Shown: piece after piece, positions 3,540-62,468 of the stretch
Numbering within the stretch: the first letter of the stretch is position 1
Layout of the letters: each line of letters begins with the position of its first letter
Origin: Escherichia coli
GTDB taxonomy: Bacteria; Pseudomonadota; Gammaproteobacteria; Enterobacterales; Enterobacteriaceae
Assembly (NCBI RefSeq): GCF_013122565.1
Contig: NZ_CP053258.1
Length of the DNA stretch: 64,000 nucleotides
Reading direction: 5' to 3' (one strand)
Program-made: the position numbers and the translations under genes
Notes under the pieces: generated by a model
Told to the model about the DNA's origin: nothing
Databases searched by the model: none
The model's input: the letters and a program-made list of their open reading frames with translations, nothing else

Positions 3540-4901
3540 ATGTTTGATAATTTAACCGATCGTTTGTCGCGCACGCTGCGCAATATCAGTGGCCGTGGAC
3601 GCCTCACTGAAGACAACGTAAAAGATACGCTGCGCGAAGTGCGCATGGCGCTGCTGGAGGCGGACGTCGCTCTGCCGGTAGTGCGTGAGTTTATCAATCG
3701 CGTAAAAGAGAAAGCGGTTGGTCATGAAGTTAATAAGAGCCTGACGCCGGGGCAGGAGTTCGTCAAAATCGTCCGTAACGAACTGGTTGCGGCGATGGGC
3801 GAAGAGAACCAGACCCTGAACCTGGCGGCGCAACCGCCTGCGGTCGTGCTGATGGCGGGCCTGCAAGGTGCCGGTAAAACAACCAGCGTTGGTAAACTCG
3901 GTAAGTTCCTGCGCGAGAAGCACAAGAAGAAAGTGCTGGTGGTTTCTGCCGACGTTTATCGCCCGGCGGCAATCAAACAGCTTGAGACGCTGGCAGAGCA
4001 GGTGGGCGTTGATTTCTTCCCTTCTGATGTTGGTCAGAAGCCGGTAGATATCGTTAACGCGGCGCTGAAAGAAGCCAAACTGAAATTCTACGACGTGCTG
4101 CTGGTGGATACCGCCGGTCGTCTGCACGTTGACGAAGCGATGATGGACGAGATCAAACAAGTCCATGCGTCGATTAACCCGGTTGAAACCCTGTTTGTGG
4201 TTGACGCCATGACCGGTCAGGATGCGGCCAATACGGCAAAAGCATTCAATGAAGCGTTACCGCTTACCGGCGTAGTGTTGACCAAAGTGGACGGCGATGC
4301 CCGCGGCGGTGCGGCGCTCTCTATTCGTCACATCACTGGCAAACCGATCAAGTTCCTCGGTGTTGGCGAGAAAACTGAGGCGCTGGAGCCGTTCCATCCG
4401 GACCGCATCGCGTCGCGTATTCTCGGCATGGGCGACGTACTGTCGCTGATCGAAGATATCGAAAGCAAAGTTGACCGCGCGCAGGCAGAGAAATTAGCCA
4501 GCAAGCTGAAAAAAGGCGACGGCTTCGATCTCAACGATTTTCTTGAGCAACTGCGCCAGATGAAAAATATGGGCGGCATGGCTAGCCTGATGGGCAAGCT
4601 GCCGGGCATGGGGCAGATCCCGGATAACGTCAAGTCGCAGATGGACGATAAAGTGCTGGTGCGTATGGAGGCCATCATCAACTCGATGACGATGAAAGAG
4701 CGCGCTAAGCCAGAAATCATCAAAGGTTCGCGTAAGCGTCGTATCGCCGCTGGTTGCGGGATGCAGGTACAGGACGTTAACCGCCTTCTGAAGCAGTTCG
4801 ACGACATGCAGCGCATGATGAAGAAAATGAAGAAGGGCGGAATGGCGAAGATGATGAGAAGCATGAAAGGGATGATGCCGCCGGGATTTCCTGGTCGCTA
4901 A
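3540..4901 (+). CDS. ffh: signal recognition particle protein Ffh
   Basis: 453-aa ORF with GTPase motifs (GLQGAGKTT, DTAGR, TKVDG) and Met-rich C-terminal M domain. Confidence 0.97.
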   Translation: MFDNLTDRLSRTLRNISGRGRLTEDNVKDTLREVRMALLEADVALPVVREFINRVKEKAVGHEVNKSLTPGQEFVKIVRNELVAAMGEENQTLNLAAQPPAVVLMAGLQGAGKTTSVGKLGKFLREKHKKKVLVVSADVYRPAAIKQLETLAEQVGVDFFPSDVGQKPVDIVNAALKEAKLKFYDVLLVDTAGRLHVDEAMMDEIKQVHASINPVETLFVVDAMTGQDAANTAKAFNEALPLTGVVLTKVDGDARGGAALSIRHITGKPIKFLGVGEKTEALEPFHPDRIASRILGMGDVLSLIEDIESKVDRAQAEKLASKLKKGDGFDLNDFLEQLRQMKNMGGMASLMGKLPGMGQIPDNVKSQMDDKVLVRMEAIINSMTMKERAKPEIIKGSRKRRIAAGCGMQVQDVNRLLKQFDDMQRMMKKMKKGGMAKMMRSMKGMMPPGFPGR

Positions 4902-4914
4902 TCGGCCTGGCTTG

Positions 4915-5006
4915 TTTGCCATTTTGGCACCGGGGTGTGCTCGTCATCCTCACGTACTGCGTGTACGCTCCGGTGACTGCGCGCACTCCGGCACCAAACT
5001 GGCTGC
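4915..5006. repeat. GC-rich dispersed intergenic repeat (boxC-like); second copy at 61622..61714
   Basis: About 90 bp sharing long identical blocks with 61622..61714 (TTTGCCA, GTGCTCG, ATCCTCACGTAC, CGTGTACGCTC, CCAAACTG, CTGCA); by-eye alignment roughly 70-75% identical. Confidence 0.45.
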
Positions 5007-5071
5007 ACCGCCGACGGCCTTTTACAGCAGAGTTAGCAACTGTTGATTGCAATTTCCGCAAAAATGAGTAA

Positions 5072-5398
<327 letters not shown>

Positions 5399-36814: not shown

Positions 36815-36871
36815 AAATAATGTCGGGATTAAACCCGGCATTTAACTTGTCGACAAAGTGCGCTTTATTCA

Positions 36872-36971
36872 TGCCGGATGCGGCGTGAACGCCTTATCCG
36901 GCCTACAAGATCGTGCAAATTCAATATATTGCATGAGCCACGTAGGCCTGATAAGCGTAGCGCATCAGGCA
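36872..36971. repeat. BIME: two inverted REP palindromic units
   Basis: TGCCGGATGCGGCGTGAACGCCTTATCCGGCCTACA and inverted GTAGGCCTGATAAGCGTAGCGCATCAGGCA. Confidence 0.7.
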
Positions 36972-58600: not shown

Positions 58601-59587
58601 GCCAATGGGCAGACTGTATTCAGCGAAAGCCGCACTACGTTGCGTGTCTGGTGGGCAGAAACTACCTGGCAGATGCAGCGCCTGCGTGACAACCCGGAGT
58701 GTGCCGATCAGGAGCATCAGGCGAAATATAACGACGCCGATCCGGGCCTGAATGTAAAACTGTCGTTCGATATCAACGAAGATGTGGCAGCACCGTATAT
58801 TGCCACTGGCGCACGTCCGAAAGTTGCCGTACTGCGTGAGCAGGGCGTGAACTCGCATGTTGAAATGGCGGCAGCTTTCCACCGTGCGGGCTTTGATGCT
58901 ATCGACGTGCATATGAGCGACCTGCTGACTGGACGCACGGGACTGGAGGATTTCCACGCCCTGGTCGCGTGCGGCGGTTTCTCCTACGGTGATGTACTGG
59001 GTGCCGGTGAAGGTTGGGCGAAGTCTATCCTGTTCAATGACCGTGTACGCGATGAGTTTGCAACCTTCTTCCATCGTCCGCAAACGCTGGCGCTGGGGGT
59101 ATGTAACGGTTGCCAGATGATGTCTAACCTGCGCGAACTGATCCCAGGTAGTGAGTTGTGGCCACGTTTTGTGCGCAATACCTCCGATCGCTTTGAAGCG
59201 CGTTTCAGCCTGGTTGAAGTAACCCAAAGCCCGTCTCTGCTGTTGCAGGGGATGGTGGGCTCGCAAATGCCGATTGCTGTCTCTCATGGTGAAGGGCGCG
59301 TGGAAGTGCGTGATGCGGCGCATCTGGCGGCACTGGAAAGCAAAGGGCTGGTGGCACTGCGCTATGTCGATAACTTCGGCAAAGTCACTGAAACCTACCC
59401 GGCTAACCCGAACGGTTCACCGAACGGTATTACGGCGGTTACGACTGAAAGCGGTCGAGTTACCATTATGATGCCGCACCCGGAACGTGTTTTCCGTACT
59501 GTCAGCAACTCCTGGCATCCGGAAAACTGGGGCGAGGATGGCCCATGGATGCGCATTTTCCGCAATGCGCGTAAGCAGTTGGGGTAA
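55700..59587 (+). CDS. purL: phosphoribosylformylglycinamidine synthase
   Basis: 1295-aa [32 protein letters not shown]... with C-terminal glutamine amidotransferase domain. Confidence 0.97.
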
Positions 59588-59610
59588 GTCGTCAGCCCAT
59601 TGGTTTTGCA

Positions 59611-59641
59611 GCCCGGATGAGGCATTCACGCCGCATCCGGC
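59611..59641. repeat. REP palindromic unit
   Basis: GCCCGGATGAGGCATTCACGCCGCATCCGGC, an imperfect palindrome typical of REP, just after purL stop. Confidence 0.6.
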
Positions 59642-59663
59642 ATTAAGCACCAACCACTATCAT

Positions 59664-59920: not shown

Positions 59921-60104
59921 AGTGGCTCATTCACCGACTTATGTCAGCCCCTTCGGGACGTGCTACATAAAATTCGAATGACGCACAACAAGGTGCCTGC
60001 CGTCCAACTTCTGATATCAGCGTAGCTATATCAACCATCGGGCGAAACGTCGAGTTAGGCACCGCCTTATTCCATAACAAAGCCGGGTAATTCCCGGCTT
60101 TGTT
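59921..60104 (+). ncRNA. glmY: small RNA GlmY
   Basis: Predicted start about 12 nt after sigma54 -12 GC; ends at strong terminator ACAAAGCCGGG-TAATT-CCCGGCTTTGT (60077-60103) followed by TGTATCT; about 184 nt. 5' and 3' ends approximate. Confidence 0.7.
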
Positions 60105-60162: not shown

Positions 60163-61590
60163 TTGAAACGCTGGCCCGTTTTTCCCCGCTCATTACGACA
60201 ACTGGTAATGCTGGCATTTTTGCTGATTCTGCTGCCCCTGTTGGTGCTGGCATGGCAAGCCTGGCAAAGCCTGAATGCGCTTAGCGACCAGGCGGCGCTG
60301 GTCAACCGCACCACGCTTATCGATGCCCGGCGCAGTGAAGCGATGACCAACGCGGCGCTGGAGATGGAGCGTAGCTACCGTCAGTATTGCGTGCTGGATG
60401 ACCCTACGCTTGCGAAGGTTTATCAAAGCCAGCGCAAGCGTTACAGCGAAATGCTCGATGCCCACGCAGGCGTACTGCCAGACGATAAACTTTACCAGGC
60501 ATTGCGTCAGGATTTGAACAATCTGGCCCAACTTCAGTGTAACAACAGTGGTCCCGATGCTGCCGCCGCCGCGCGTCTTGAAGCCTTTGCCAGTGCCAAT
60601 ACCGAAATGGTGCAGGCCACGCGCACAGTGGTGTTCTCTCGTGGGCAGCAACTTCAGCGTGAAATCGCCGAACGTGGGCAATATTTTGGTTGGCAATCGC
60701 TGGTGCTATTTCTGGTGAGTCTGGTGATGGTGCTACTTTTCACGCGGATGATTATCGGGCCGGTGAAAAATATTGAACGGATGATCAATCGGTTGGGGGA
60801 AGGGCGTTCTCTGGGCAATAGCGTTTCGTTCAGTGGACCGAGCGAGTTACGCTCGGTTGGGCAACGTATTCTTTGGTTAAGTGAGCGCCTGTCATGGCTG
60901 GAATCCCAACGCCATCAATTTTTAAGACATTTATCTCATGAATTAAAAACGCCACTGGCGAGTATGCGCGAGGGCACTGAATTACTGGCCGATCAGGTTG
61001 TCGGGCCGCTTACGCCAGAGCAAAAAGAGGTGGTGAGCATTCTTGATAGCAGCAGCCGCAATTTGCAAAAACTGATCGAACAACTGCTTGATTACAACCG
61101 TAAACAGGCGGACAGTGCGGTGGAACTGGAGAATGTTGAATTAGCACCGCTGGTGGAGACAGTGGTTTCTGCTCATAGCCTGCCCGCACGGGCTAAAATG
61201 ATGCATACCGACGTCGATCTCAAAGCAACAGCTTGCCTGGCGGAGCCAATGCTGCTGATGAGCGTACTGGATAATCTTTACTCCAATGCGGTGCACTACG
61301 GGGCTGAATCCGGTAACATTTGCCTTCGCAGCAGTTTACATGGTGCGCGGGTTTATATTGATGTCATCAATACAGGCACACCCATTCCGCAAGAGGAACG
61401 CGCCATGATCTTCGAACCCTTTTTTCAGGGAAGCCACCAGCGAAAAGGGGCGGTGAAGGGCAGCGGTCTGGGATTAAGCATTGCCAGGGATTGTATTCGC
61501 CGTATGCAAGGGGAACTGTATCTGGTCGACGAGAGCGGGCAAGACGTTTGTTTCCGCATTGAATTGCCGTCGTCGAAAAACACGAAATAA
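60163..61590 (+). CDS. glrK: sensor histidine kinase GlrK (QseE/YfhK)
   Basis: ORF track 60100..61590 begins inside the GlmY terminator; TTG at 60163 gives (M)KRWPVFPRSLRQLVMLAFLLILLP..., 475 aa; HAMP, H-box HELKTPL and ATPase domain. Confidence 0.85.
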   Translation: MKRWPVFPRSLRQLVMLAFLLILLPLLVLAWQAWQSLNALSDQAALVNRTTLIDARRSEAMTNAALEMERSYRQYCVLDDPTLAKVYQSQRKRYSEMLDAHAGVLPDDKLYQALRQDLNNLAQLQCNNSGPDAAAAARLEAFASANTEMVQATRTVVFSRGQQLQREIAERGQYFGWQSLVLFLVSLVMVLLFTRMIIGPVKNIERMINRLGEGRSLGNSVSFSGPSELRSVGQRILWLSERLSWLESQRHQFLRHLSHELKTPLASMREGTELLADQVVGPLTPEQKEVVSILDSSSRNLQKLIEQLLDYNRKQADSAVELENVELAPLVETVVSAHSLPARAKMMHTDVDLKATACLAEPMLLMSVLDNLYSNAVHYGAESGNICLRSSLHGARVYIDVINTGTPIPQEERAMIFEPFFQGSHQRKGAVKGSGLGLSIARDCIRRMQGELYLVDESGQDVCFRIELPSSKNTK

Positions 61591-61621
61591 TGCTAACAGC
61601 CTATCCCATCAGGCTATTTTA

Positions 61622-61714
61622 TTTGCCAGTTCGGCCCCGGGCAGTGCTCGAAATCCTCACGTACGACGTGTACGCTCTGGTTTCTCCGCACGGTCCATGT
61701 CCAAACTGCCTGCA
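61622..61714. repeat. GC-rich dispersed intergenic repeat (boxC-like), partner of 4915..5006
   Basis: See 4915..5006; lies between glrK stop and qseG start. Confidence 0.45.
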
Positions 61715-61754
61715 ACAATTATGCCCACTGGGAAAGGCTTTAAGTCTGGTGAAT

Positions 61755-62468
61755 ATGCGACACATTTTTCAACGATTATTGCCCCGACGGCTGTGGCTGG
61801 CAGGGCTGCCATGTCTGGCATTGCTGGGTTGCGTGCAGAGTCACAATAAGCCAGCCATTAATACGCCAGCAGAAGAAAAAATTCCGGTTTATCAACTGGC
61901 TGACTATCTTTCTACTGAATGTAGCGACATCTGGGCGCTGCAAGGTAAATCAACCGAAACCAATCCGCTTTACTGGCTGCGGGCGATGGATTGTGCTGAT
62001 CGTTTAATGCCTGCGCAGTCGCGTCAGCAAGCTCGCCAATATGACGACGGCAGCTGGCAAAATACCTTTAAACAAGGGATTTTGCTCGCCGACGCCAAAA
62101 TTACGCCGTATGAGCGCCGCCAGCTGGTCGCGCGTATTGATGAGTTAAGTACCGAGATCCCGGCACAGGTTCGCCCTCTGTATCAACTCTGGCGCGACGG
62201 TCAGGCGCTGCAACTGCAACTGGCGGAAGAGCGCCAACGCTACGGCAAGCTCCAGCAATCCAGCGACAGCGAGCTGGATACATTGCGCCAGCAACATCAC
62301 GTTCTACAGCAGCAACTGGAACTCACCACCCGCAAGCTGGAAAACCTGACCGATATTGAACGCCAGCTCTCGACCCGCAAACCGGCTGGAAATTTCTCGC
62401 CGGATACGCCGCACGAGGGTGAAAAGCCCGCGCCATCCACCCATGAGGTCACTCCTGATGAGCCATAA
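61755..62468 (+). CDS. qseG: outer-membrane lipoprotein QseG (YfhG)
   Basis: ORF track 61590..62468; ATG at 61755 gives MRHIFQRLLPRRLWLAGLPCLALLGCVQ... with lipobox, 237 aa. Confidence 0.85.
   Translation: MRHIFQRLLPRRLWLAGLPCLALLGCVQSHNKPAINTPAEEKIPVYQLADYLSTECSDIWALQGKSTETNPLYWLRAMDCADRLMPAQSRQQARQYDDGSWQNTFKQGILLADAKITPYERRQLVARIDELSTEIPAQVRPLYQLWRDGQALQLQLAEERQRYGKLQQSSDSELDTLRQQHHVLQQQLELTTRKLENLTDIERQLSTRKPAGNFSPDTPHEGEKPAPSTHEVTPDEP

What the first reader, a model, noticed from the sequence alone, without database searches (positions are those of the whole stretch)
4915..5006. A roughly 90-bp GC-rich repeat occurs twice, downstream of ffh and between glrK and qseG
4915-5006 and 61622-61714 share long identical blocks in the same order (TTTGCCA, GTGCTCG, ATCCTCACGTAC, CGTGTACGCTC, CCAAACTG, CTGCA). 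Neither copy overlaps a coding region or an obvious terminator. This looks like a member of a small dispersed intergenic repeat family of E. coli, possibly boxC, but I cannot name it with certainty from memory. The second copy sits inside the glrK-qseG-glrR operon, where it could affect mRNA structure or stability.
Basis: seen in the sequence. Interest (0 to 1): 0.45.

Follow-up and report, generated by a model that had tools for sequence, protein, structure and literature searches.

The report
Old mobile palindrome, two relic copies
The two similar stretches are relic copies of a small, long-known mobile DNA palindrome of enterobacteria (not boxC); they are ordinary in E. coli, but the tip of the hairpin they can form is the same in bacteria from at least seven phyla, which I found described nowhere.

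Summary
Window 4901-5007 and 61608-61714 are 75% identical without gaps (80/107; background 26.9±4.6), and this is the only long repeat in the window. Each copy is one long imperfect palindrome. Copy A is about 121 nt, between ffh and rpsP. Copy B is 144 nt, between glrK and qseG.

They are not boxC: a boxC profile finds nothing. They are not ERIC either (E=0.076, apex only). A profile of the Salmonella 'Sal-1' repeat family hits both copies full-length (E about 1e-27).

Copy number (6 places in K-12 strains), length (144 nt plus two 3-nt duplications = 150) and orientation fit the 'RSA' repeats of the old K-12 record. I could not obtain an RSA sequence to confirm the name.

The anatomy is that of a miniature inverted-repeat transposable element: terminal inverted repeats, TAA/TTA target duplications, no gene, and presence/absence differences between strains. 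Copy A is present in about 41% of 5,426 E. coli genomes. Copy B is fixed but decaying.

Unexpectedly, the 29-nt apex recurs in Scalindua, Syntrophus, Chlorobiales, Rokubacteria, Bacillus, Rickettsia RPE-5 and the Xanthomonas sX9 RNA family, inside palindromes with different arms. Its function is unknown.

The parts
4899..4901 (+). ffh stop codon TAA, which is also the left flanking trinucleotide of copy A (putative target-site duplication)
   Evidence: The right flank is TAC (5023-5025), so the duplication is imperfect here.
4902..5022 (+). Copy A of the palindromic element (palindrome proper 4904-5019, GGCC to GGCC), in the ffh-rpsP spacer
   Evidence: Sal-1 profile E=1.2e-26. RNA MFE -63.3 kcal/mol, z=-5.6. 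A 112-bp presence/absence difference among E. coli genomes.
4946..4974 (+). Apex motif of copy A: ATCCTCACGTAC-TGCGT-GTACGCTCCGGT
   Evidence: The identical motif is found in many phyla.
61594..61596 (+). Left TAA target-site duplication of copy B
   Evidence: The element starts 7 nt after the glrK stop codon (61588-61590).
61597..61740 (+). Copy B of the palindromic element, 144 nt, in the glrK-qseG spacer
   Evidence: Sal-1 profile E=5.3e-28. Terminal inverted repeats CAGCCTATCC / GGAAAGGCTT match 8/10. Present in 5,425 of 5,426 genomes with no length change.
61598..61615 (+). Left terminal small hairpin AGCCTATCCCATCAGGCT followed by ATTTTATTTG (terminator-like)
   Evidence: This is a consensus match only.
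61653..61681 (+). Apex motif of copy B: ATCCTCACGTAC-GACGT-GTACGCTCTGGT (one change from the consensus)
   Evidence: Aligns to Rfam sX9 at 26.4 bits, below the gathering score of 44.
61741..61743 (+). Right TAA target-site duplication of copy B, 12 nt before the qseG ATG (61756)

Best explanation
[quoted passage not shown] It is the family called 'Sal-1' in Salmonella and most probably the 'RSA' repeats of the original E. coli K-12 annotation. A full copy is a ~144-bp imperfect palindrome with terminal inverted repeats. It carries no gene. It inserted at TWA, usually within CTWAG, and duplicated the TAA/TTA. I infer from the inverted ends and the duplications that a DDE-type transposase supplied in trans moved it; which transposase is unknown. 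In E. coli the family is now essentially static: there are a few ancient copies at fixed intergenic sites. These copies are being lost by deletion (copy A, and the pyrH-frr copy) or eroded by point mutation (copy B). Any effect on ffh/rpsP or glrK/qseG expression would be a by-product of the long hairpin the transcript can form. Shown: family membership, palindromic anatomy, flanking duplications, population polymorphism, and absence of an adjacent gene. Inferred: transposase-mediated origin, loss rather than gain in E. coli, and the name RSA.
For: Family: a profile built from 7 Salmonella Sal-1 members hits copy B at E=5.3e-28 and copy A at E=1.2e-26 over the whole profile. It also hits four further K-12 sites: pyrH-frr, ycbX-rlmL, pheM-pheS and ffh-rpsP. 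Palindrome: copy A MFE is -63 kcal/mol with z=-5.6 on either strand; copy B is -35/-43 kcal/mol. The alignment of six copies shows the palindrome extending to about 145 nt. Target duplications in enterobacteria: TAA/TTA next to 10-nt inverted ends at copy B, ycbX-rlmL (CTTAG on both sides), L018, L044 and L146, i.e. 8 of 22 elements against 1.2% in controls. Target duplications in relatives: 17 of 24 Scalindua copies have identical TANNTA 6-mers, and 5 of 6 Syntrophus copies have identical TWA. Not autonomous: no protein family recurs within 1.5 kb in 120 loci. Polymorphism: copy A is at >=95% identity in 2,224 of 5,425 genomes, and the rest have a spacer 112 bp shorter. The pyrH-frr copy is absent (142 bp shorter) in about a third of the rows sampled. 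Age: the ffh-rpsP copy also occurs in E. albertii and Enterobacter sp. BIGb0383 (L021, L047). Recent activity elsewhere: 10 near-identical Sal-1 copies in S. Typhimurium. RSA: the old K-12 record lists 6 RSA of 150/151 bp, 2 forward and 4 reverse (PMC5172473). K-12 strains here have 6 places. Copy B is 144 nt plus 2x3 nt, which makes 150. Of the five K-12 copies located, 2 are forward and 3 reverse.
Against: No transposase with matching ends was found, so mobilisation is inferred from anatomy only. Copy A's flanking trinucleotides differ (TAA/TAC). The two 'empty' alleles are not clean. At ffh-rpsP the empty allele keeps ATGACC where the filled one has TCGGCC, and its flanks are diverged. At pyrH-frr the junction reads AGAT, which neither a precise insertion nor a precise deletion predicts. 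Element boundaries in the TSD scan were searched for, not known beforehand. The invariant part is the apex, not the ends, which is unusual for a MITE and unexplained. No RSA sequence was available, and the sixth K-12 copy was not located.
Confidence: 0.8

Rival explanations
1. The copies are host cis-regulatory RNA structures, possibly co-opted from a repeat. Copy A would act as the 3' end hairpin, terminator or insulator of ffh in front of the rpsP promoter. Copy B would act as an intercistronic hairpin or attenuator that tunes qseG and glrR relative to glrK.
For: Both window copies lie in the sense orientation of their operons and fold stably. Copy A ends in GGCC followed by TTTT and lies upstream of the rpsP promoter-like site at 5047-5074. 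Copy B's left terminal hairpin plus T tract is terminator-like and sits just after the glrK stop codon; its right end lies 15 nt before the qseG ATG. Copy B is fixed in E. coli.
Against: About 59% of E. coli genomes lack copy A, so it is dispensable. Other family members lie antisense to their operons (pyrH-frr, pheM-pheS) or between divergent genes (ycbX-rlmL). Copy B has accumulated 8 changes in 144 nt between two strains whose flanks are identical, one of them in the apex, and its hairpin is much degraded. No transcript data were examined.
Confidence: 0.12
2. The element is, or contains, a small-RNA gene of the sX9 type. A stable ~75-nt RNA starting at the apex and covering the right arm would be made from each copy and act in trans.
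For: Rfam sX9 (RF02228) aligns end to end with the apex plus right arm on the + strand. Copy B scores 26.4 bits (E=0.003) and copy A 16.7 bits. A Polaromonas relative scores 46.6 bits, above the gathering score. sX9 is a Northern-confirmed 75-nt RNA in Xanthomonas (PMC3300014).
Against: Both window copies score below Rfam's gathering score of 44. No sigma-70-like promoter was found inside the left arm. In Xanthomonas, sX9 read starts came mainly from the untreated library and no start site was annotated, so it looks like a processing product of a longer transcript. There is no evidence of such an RNA in E. coli.
Confidence: 0.07
3. The copies are boxC elements, as the first reader tentatively suggested.
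For: None beyond both being GC-rich intergenic repeats.
Against: The 22 published boxC members share CCCCTCACCCTAACCCTCTCCCC-N-GGGGCGAGGGGAC, about 50 nt. A profile of them finds nothing in the window at E<=10. The copy number also differs: 22-33 against 6.
Confidence: 0.01

Closest known systems
Sal-1 repeat family of Salmonella Typhimurium (Petrillo et al. 2008, PMC2267715)
   Same: Same sequence family. A profile of Sal-1 members hits both window copies over its full length at E about 1e-27. Same apex, same arms, same intergenic habit.
   Different: Salmonella has more copies (27 listed). Many are a longer composite form with an extra ~62-nt module between left arm and apex, and these are nearly identical to each other. 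That module is absent from E. coli.
RSA repeats of E. coli K-12 (original GenBank annotation; surveyed by Bachellier et al. 1999, cited from my own knowledge)
   Same: Six copies in K-12, 150/151 bp, 2 forward and 4 reverse. Here: 6 places in K-12 strains, 144 nt + 2x3 nt = 150, and 2 forward plus 3 reverse located. The apex holds two GTAC (RsaI) sites, which may explain the name; that is my guess.
   Different: Nothing known to differ, but no RSA sequence or coordinates were accessible, so identity is inferred.
Rfam RF02228, Xanthomonas sRNA sX9
   Same: The sX9 consensus (AUGUAC-loop-GUACACUCCGGUUCCUCCGC...GCUCGCUACG) is the apex plus right arm of the beta/gamma-proteobacterial branch of the same palindrome. 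A Polaromonas copy passes the gathering score.
   Different: The model covers only half of the palindrome and treats it as an sRNA gene. The E. coli copies score 26.4 and 16.7 bits, below the threshold of 44. The arms differ.
Rickettsia palindromic element RPE-5
   Same: About 115-nt palindromes that share the apex (CTCACGTAY-loop-RTACGCTCCG). Some copies carry the exact GATCCTCACGTAC...GTACGCTGCGGTC. They also share the flanking motifs CGTCGT and CGCCTTG.
   Different: Arms and ends are unrelated to the enterobacterial ones. RPEs are known for in-frame insertion into genes (PMC10969869). The relationship rests on about 30 nt.
ERIC / IRU
   Same: Also an imperfect palindrome of about 127 bp, with a small copy number in E. 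coli and longer variants with internal insertions. Its apex GGAGC(T/G)TAC-loop-GTA(A/C)GTGA resembles the minus strand of this apex, CCGGAGCGTAC-loop-GTACGTGAGGAT.
   Different: The overall sequence is different. An ERIC profile gives only E=0.076, at the apex of copy A. Not the same family by this test.
boxC
   Same: A GC-rich intergenic repeat of E. coli.
   Different: Unrelated sequence, about 50-56 bp, 22-33 copies, with triplex-type G/C tracts.

Membership tests
boxC | Consensus CCCCTCACCCTAACCCTCTCCCC..GGGGCGAGGGGAC, about 50-56 bp | tested here: not met
   An nhmmer profile of 15 published members finds no hit in the window at E<=10.
boxC | About 22-33 copies in K-12 | tested here: not met
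   6 places in K-12 strains, against 22-33 for boxC.
ERIC / IRU | Match to the 127-bp ERIC consensus | tested here: not met
   A profile of 10 published E. coli ERICs has its best hit at 4945-4987 on the minus strand: E=0.076, 8.7 bits, apex only.
Sal-1 (Salmonella) | Full-length match to a profile of the family's members | tested here: met
   E=5.3e-28 (61612-61729) and E=1.2e-26 (4907-5020), covering profile positions 2-119.
RSA (E. coli K-12) | Six copies in K-12 | tested here: met
   K-12 DHB4, TOP10 and other K-12-like records each have 6 places. Five were located.
RSA (E. coli K-12) | Length 150/151 bp | tested here: met
   Copy B is 144 nt plus two 3-nt duplications, 150 in all (61594-61743). 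The alignment of copies is palindromic over about 145 nt. Copy A is shorter, at about 121 nt.
RSA (E. coli K-12) | Orientation 2 forward, 4 reverse | tested here: inconclusive
   2 forward (ycbX-rlmL, pheM-pheS) and 3 reverse (pyrH-frr, glrK-qseG, ffh-rpsP). The sixth copy was not found.
RSA (E. coli K-12) | Sequence or coordinates of the annotated RSA features | not testable with these tools
   The current NC_000913.3 record has no such feature at the sites. No paper in the library gives the sequence.
Rfam RF02228 sX9 | Covariance-model score at or above the gathering score (44 bits) | tested here: not met
   Copy B 26.4 bits, copy A 16.7 bits. The Polaromonas relative scores 46.6 bits and passes.
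MITE | Terminal inverted repeats | tested here: met
   Copy B ends match 8/10. The whole element is an imperfect palindrome.
MITE | Target-site duplication | tested here: met
   Copy B TAA/TAA; ycbX-rlmL CTTAG/CTTAG; L018 and L044 CTAAG/CTAAG. Scalindua 17/24 and Syntrophus 5/6. Copy A is imperfect (TAA/TAC).
MITE | Small, non-coding, multicopy, with presence/absence polymorphism | tested here: met
   121-144 nt. The in-frame ORF through copy B is broken in another strain. 1-8 places per genome. Filled and empty alleles exist at two sites.
MITE | A cognate autonomous element or transposase with the same ends | tested here: inconclusive
   No recurrent neighbouring protein. No long pair of Scalindua or Syntrophus ends enclosing a gene was evident. 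Only about 1 Mb of loci was searched.
Rickettsia RPE-5 | Match to the RPE-5 consensus | tested here: inconclusive
   Only the apex and two short flanking motifs are shared, read by eye from 45 published members. No profile test was run.

The most novel reading that the evidence does not exclude
RSA/Sal-1 of enterobacteria, Xanthomonas sX9, Rickettsia RPE-5 and many unnamed repeats belong to one cross-phylum superfamily of palindromic MITEs. The unnamed repeats are in Scalindua, Syntrophus, Chlorobiales, Rokubacteria, Bacillus and beta- and alpha-proteobacteria; ERIC may be a more distant relative. Terminal repeats and target duplications differ between lineages, but a ~29-nt apex is kept almost unchanged: AUC / 4x4 internal loop CUCA:CUCC / 5-bp stem CGUAC:GUACG / GGU. 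On this reading the apex is a functional module, either an RNA processing signal that yields stable sX9-like fragments or a site for a universal host factor needed by the element. It would not be a leftover. Caveats: 20 of the 29 positions were fixed by my search pattern, and a Scalindua sister subfamily carries two changes in the apex.
Probability: 0.35. Interest if true: 0.7.

Novelty: already known. Interest (0 to 1): 0.42.

Why it matters
For E. coli itself it matters little. The result gives a correct name and correct boundaries for an unannotated repeat. It shows that about 59% of strains lack the ffh-rpsP copy and about a third lack the pyrH-frr copy; these are natural alleles for testing any effect on ffh, rpsP and frr expression, and they could serve as typing markers. 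It also warns that 'sX9' hits in genome annotation are repeat elements. The wider point concerns a question open since the 1990s: how ERIC-, RSA- and RPE-type palindromes arise and move. Clear target duplications, together with an apex shared across phyla, give a concrete handle. One could look for the transposases whose ends match each lineage's elements and for whatever binds or cuts the invariant apex.

Tried and rejected
(1) boxC and ERIC membership were rejected by profile searches.

(2) Rfam: nothing at gathering thresholds in the window; only sub-threshold sX9.

(3) N-terminal extension of QseG. ORF 61590-62468 runs in frame through copy B from a TAATG overlap with glrK. It is interrupted by TAG in strain ampC_0069, and RefSeq annotates qseG from MRHIF. 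It is a chance ORF.

(4) Strand of action. G.T versus A.C mismatches in the arms number 566 vs 425, so there is no clear bias. The minus strand folds better in 91 of 123 elements, but mainly because of the apex. Orientation relative to neighbouring genes is mixed in E. coli. Undecided.

(5) Neighbouring transposase: no recurrent protein family within 1.5 kb. A tyrosine recombinase lies near 3 Scalindua copies only. A search for long pairs of element ends found none enclosing an obvious gene.

(6) Phage carriage: 22 viral-contig hits are all the enterobacterial type at a few orthologous sites, probably prophage borders.

(7) Plasmid carriage: the copies lie in captured chromosomal segments.

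(8) The 62-nt module of the composite form is absent from E. coli.

(9) Sigma-54 promoter. By eye, TGGCAC-N-TGCT in the left arm has the GG..GC spacing one base too long. Not pursued.

(10) Literature searches by sequence words and by family names gave no description of the family or its apex.

(11) The sixth K-12 copy was not located, because the search tool shows only one place per record.

Full report
**Observation**

The two stretches exist as described. Window 4901-5007 and 61608-61714 are 75% identical without gaps, and this is the longest direct repeat in the 64-kb window. Copy A scored against every 107-mer on both strands gives 80 matches at copy B. The next best score is 50 and the background is 26.9±4.6. 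The core CCTCACGTACN5GTACGCTCCGG occurs only at these two places, with none expected by chance. Copy A lies between the ffh stop codon (4899-4901) and rpsP (5151). Copy B lies between the glrK stop codon (61588-61590) and the qseG start (61756).

**Anatomy**

Each copy is one long imperfect palindrome. As RNA, copy A folds at -63 kcal/mol (z=-5.6) on either strand. Copy B is degraded, at -35/-43 kcal/mol. Aligning six E. coli copies shows that the palindrome extends to about 145 nt. Copy B is 144 nt (61597-61740), has inverted ends, and is flanked by TAA on both sides. Copy A is shorter (about 4902-5022). Its left flank is the ffh stop codon TAA and its right flank is TAC.

**Name**

Published member sequences allowed direct tests.
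- A boxC profile finds nothing in the window.
- An ERIC profile gives only E=0.076, at the apex of copy A.
- A profile of the Salmonella 'Sal-1' family hits both copies full-length, at E=5e-28 and 1e-26.

The original K-12 record listed six 'RSA' repeats of 150/151 bp, two forward and four reverse (PMC5172473). K-12 strains have six places of this family. I located five of them in MG1655: pyrH-frr, ycbX-rlmL, pheM-pheS, glrK-qseG and ffh-rpsP. Two are forward and three reverse. Copy B plus its two duplications is 150 nt. RSA is therefore the likely name. No RSA sequence was accessible, so this remains an inference.

**Population behaviour**

Among 5,426 complete E. coli genomes there are 1-8 places per genome, with a median of 5.
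- Copy A is present in about 41% of genomes. The others have an ffh-rpsP spacer 112 bp shorter, with diverged flanks, that keeps one GACC where the filled allele has GGCC at each end of the palindrome.
- The same insertion is present in E. albertii and in Enterobacter sp. BIGb0383. It is therefore old, and the short allele is most simply a deletion.
- The pyrH-frr copy is missing, as a 142-bp difference, in about a third of the sampled rows. The flanks there are 99.8% identical and the junction is imprecise.
- Copy B is fixed, with no length change. It differs at 8 of 144 positions between two strains whose flanks are identical, and one of these changes is in the apex. This suggests drift rather than constraint.

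**Mobility**

Flanking duplications are clear.
- Enterobacterial copies have TAA/TTA, often within CTWAG, next to inverted ends. This holds for 8 of 22 elements against 1.2% in controls.
- 17 of 24 Scalindua copies have identical TANNTA 6-mers.
- 5 of 6 Syntrophus copies have identical TWA.

No protein family recurs next to the elements. This is the anatomy of a MITE moved in trans. The transposase is unknown.

**The unexpected part**

The exact apex, ATCCTCACGTAC-N3-6-GTACGCTC, should occur about twice by chance in the species-representative genome collection. Many hits lie outside Enterobacterales:
- Candidatus Scalindua, with dozens of copies;
- a Syntrophus genome, a Chlorobiales genome and Rokubacteria;
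- Bacillus fonticola;
- beta- and alpha-proteobacteria, and a member of the Rickettsiaceae.

In every case the apex sits at the tip of a lineage-specific palindrome. The four bases after the pattern (CGGT) were not required by the search and are nearly invariant. The three base pairs below the apex covary: GC, AU, UA and CG all occur. Rickettsia conorii RPE-5 carries the same apex. The Rfam family sX9 is the apex plus right arm of the beta/gamma-proteobacterial branch. sX9 is a Northern-confirmed 75-nt Xanthomonas RNA that looks like a processing product. It is one of the most frequently annotated 'sRNAs', as expected of a repeat.

Caveats: 20 positions of the apex were fixed by my search pattern, and a Scalindua sister subfamily has two apex changes.

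**Mechanism**

I conclude, with confidence about 0.8, that the two window copies are relic MITE insertions with no demonstrated host role. A co-opted role in transcript ends or stability cannot be excluded for copy B, which is fixed and ends 15 nt before the qseG start, or for copy A, which lies just before the rpsP promoter-like site. The dispensability of copy A, the mixed orientations elsewhere in the genome and the decay of copy B all argue against such a role. What the conserved apex does is unknown. Processing of read-through transcripts and binding of a universal host factor are the two readings I would test first.

**Verdict**

The finding is real, is correctly seen as a small repeat family, is wrongly named, and is already known in E. 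coli. The cross-phylum apex is the only part that a specialist would find surprising.

Noticed in passing
window 36868-36908 and 59606-59646: An inverted pair, 88% complementary, with the classic REP/PU sequence (GCCGGATGCGGCGTGAACGCCTTATCCGGCCTAC). This is a different and much commoner repeat family. The second copy lies between the long ORF ending at 59587 and GlmY (59921-60068).
   Followed up: no
window 61590-62468: An ORF starting at a TAATG overlap with the glrK stop codon runs through copy B in frame into qseG, adding 55 codons. It is broken by TAG in strain ampC_0069, so it is a chance ORF.
   Followed up: yes
L002 1480-1621 versus L151/L152 (pyrH-frr spacer): A 142-bp presence/absence difference of a family member between E. 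coli HS/K-12 (present) and O157:H7/MP1 (absent). The flanks are 99.8% identical and the junction (AGAT) is unexplained.
   Followed up: yes
L051 11243-11316; Salmonella Sal-1 members 2, 5, 6, 9, 13, 16, 19, 25: A composite form of the element with an extra ~62-nt module of three small hairpins, inserted exactly between left arm and apex. The copies are near-identical in S. Typhimurium, which suggests recent activity. The form is also in Citrobacter, Yersinia, Photorhabdus and a soil MAG, and is absent from E. coli.
   Followed up: partly
L025 370-510: In Bacillus fonticola the element sits next to what looks like a truncated second 5S rRNA copy and between two Bacillaceae-1 RNAs (RF01690). This suggests insertion into or beside an RNA gene.
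   Followed up: partly
L057 6560-6800: Two copies in tandem, apexes 124 nt apart, in Pantoea stewartii.
   Followed up: no
L154 5001-5143: A copy (83% identical to copy B) travels on many plasmids of Citrobacter, Klebsiella, Enterobacter and E. coli. It lies between an acyltransferase gene and an RND efflux operon in what looks like a captured chromosomal segment; an IS5 transposase gene lies 4.5 kb away.
   Followed up: partly
L111 603-752, L113 217-366 and about a dozen more Scalindua loci: A sister subfamily with the same ends and TANNTA duplications but a variant apex (CTCAAGTAC-AATT-GTACGTTCCGG). This shows that the apex is not absolutely invariant.
   Followed up: partly
L095 4820-6161; L097, L101: A tyrosine recombinase (integron-integrase-like C-terminal motifs) lies within about 1.5 kb of three Scalindua copies. 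It is not a general association.
   Followed up: no
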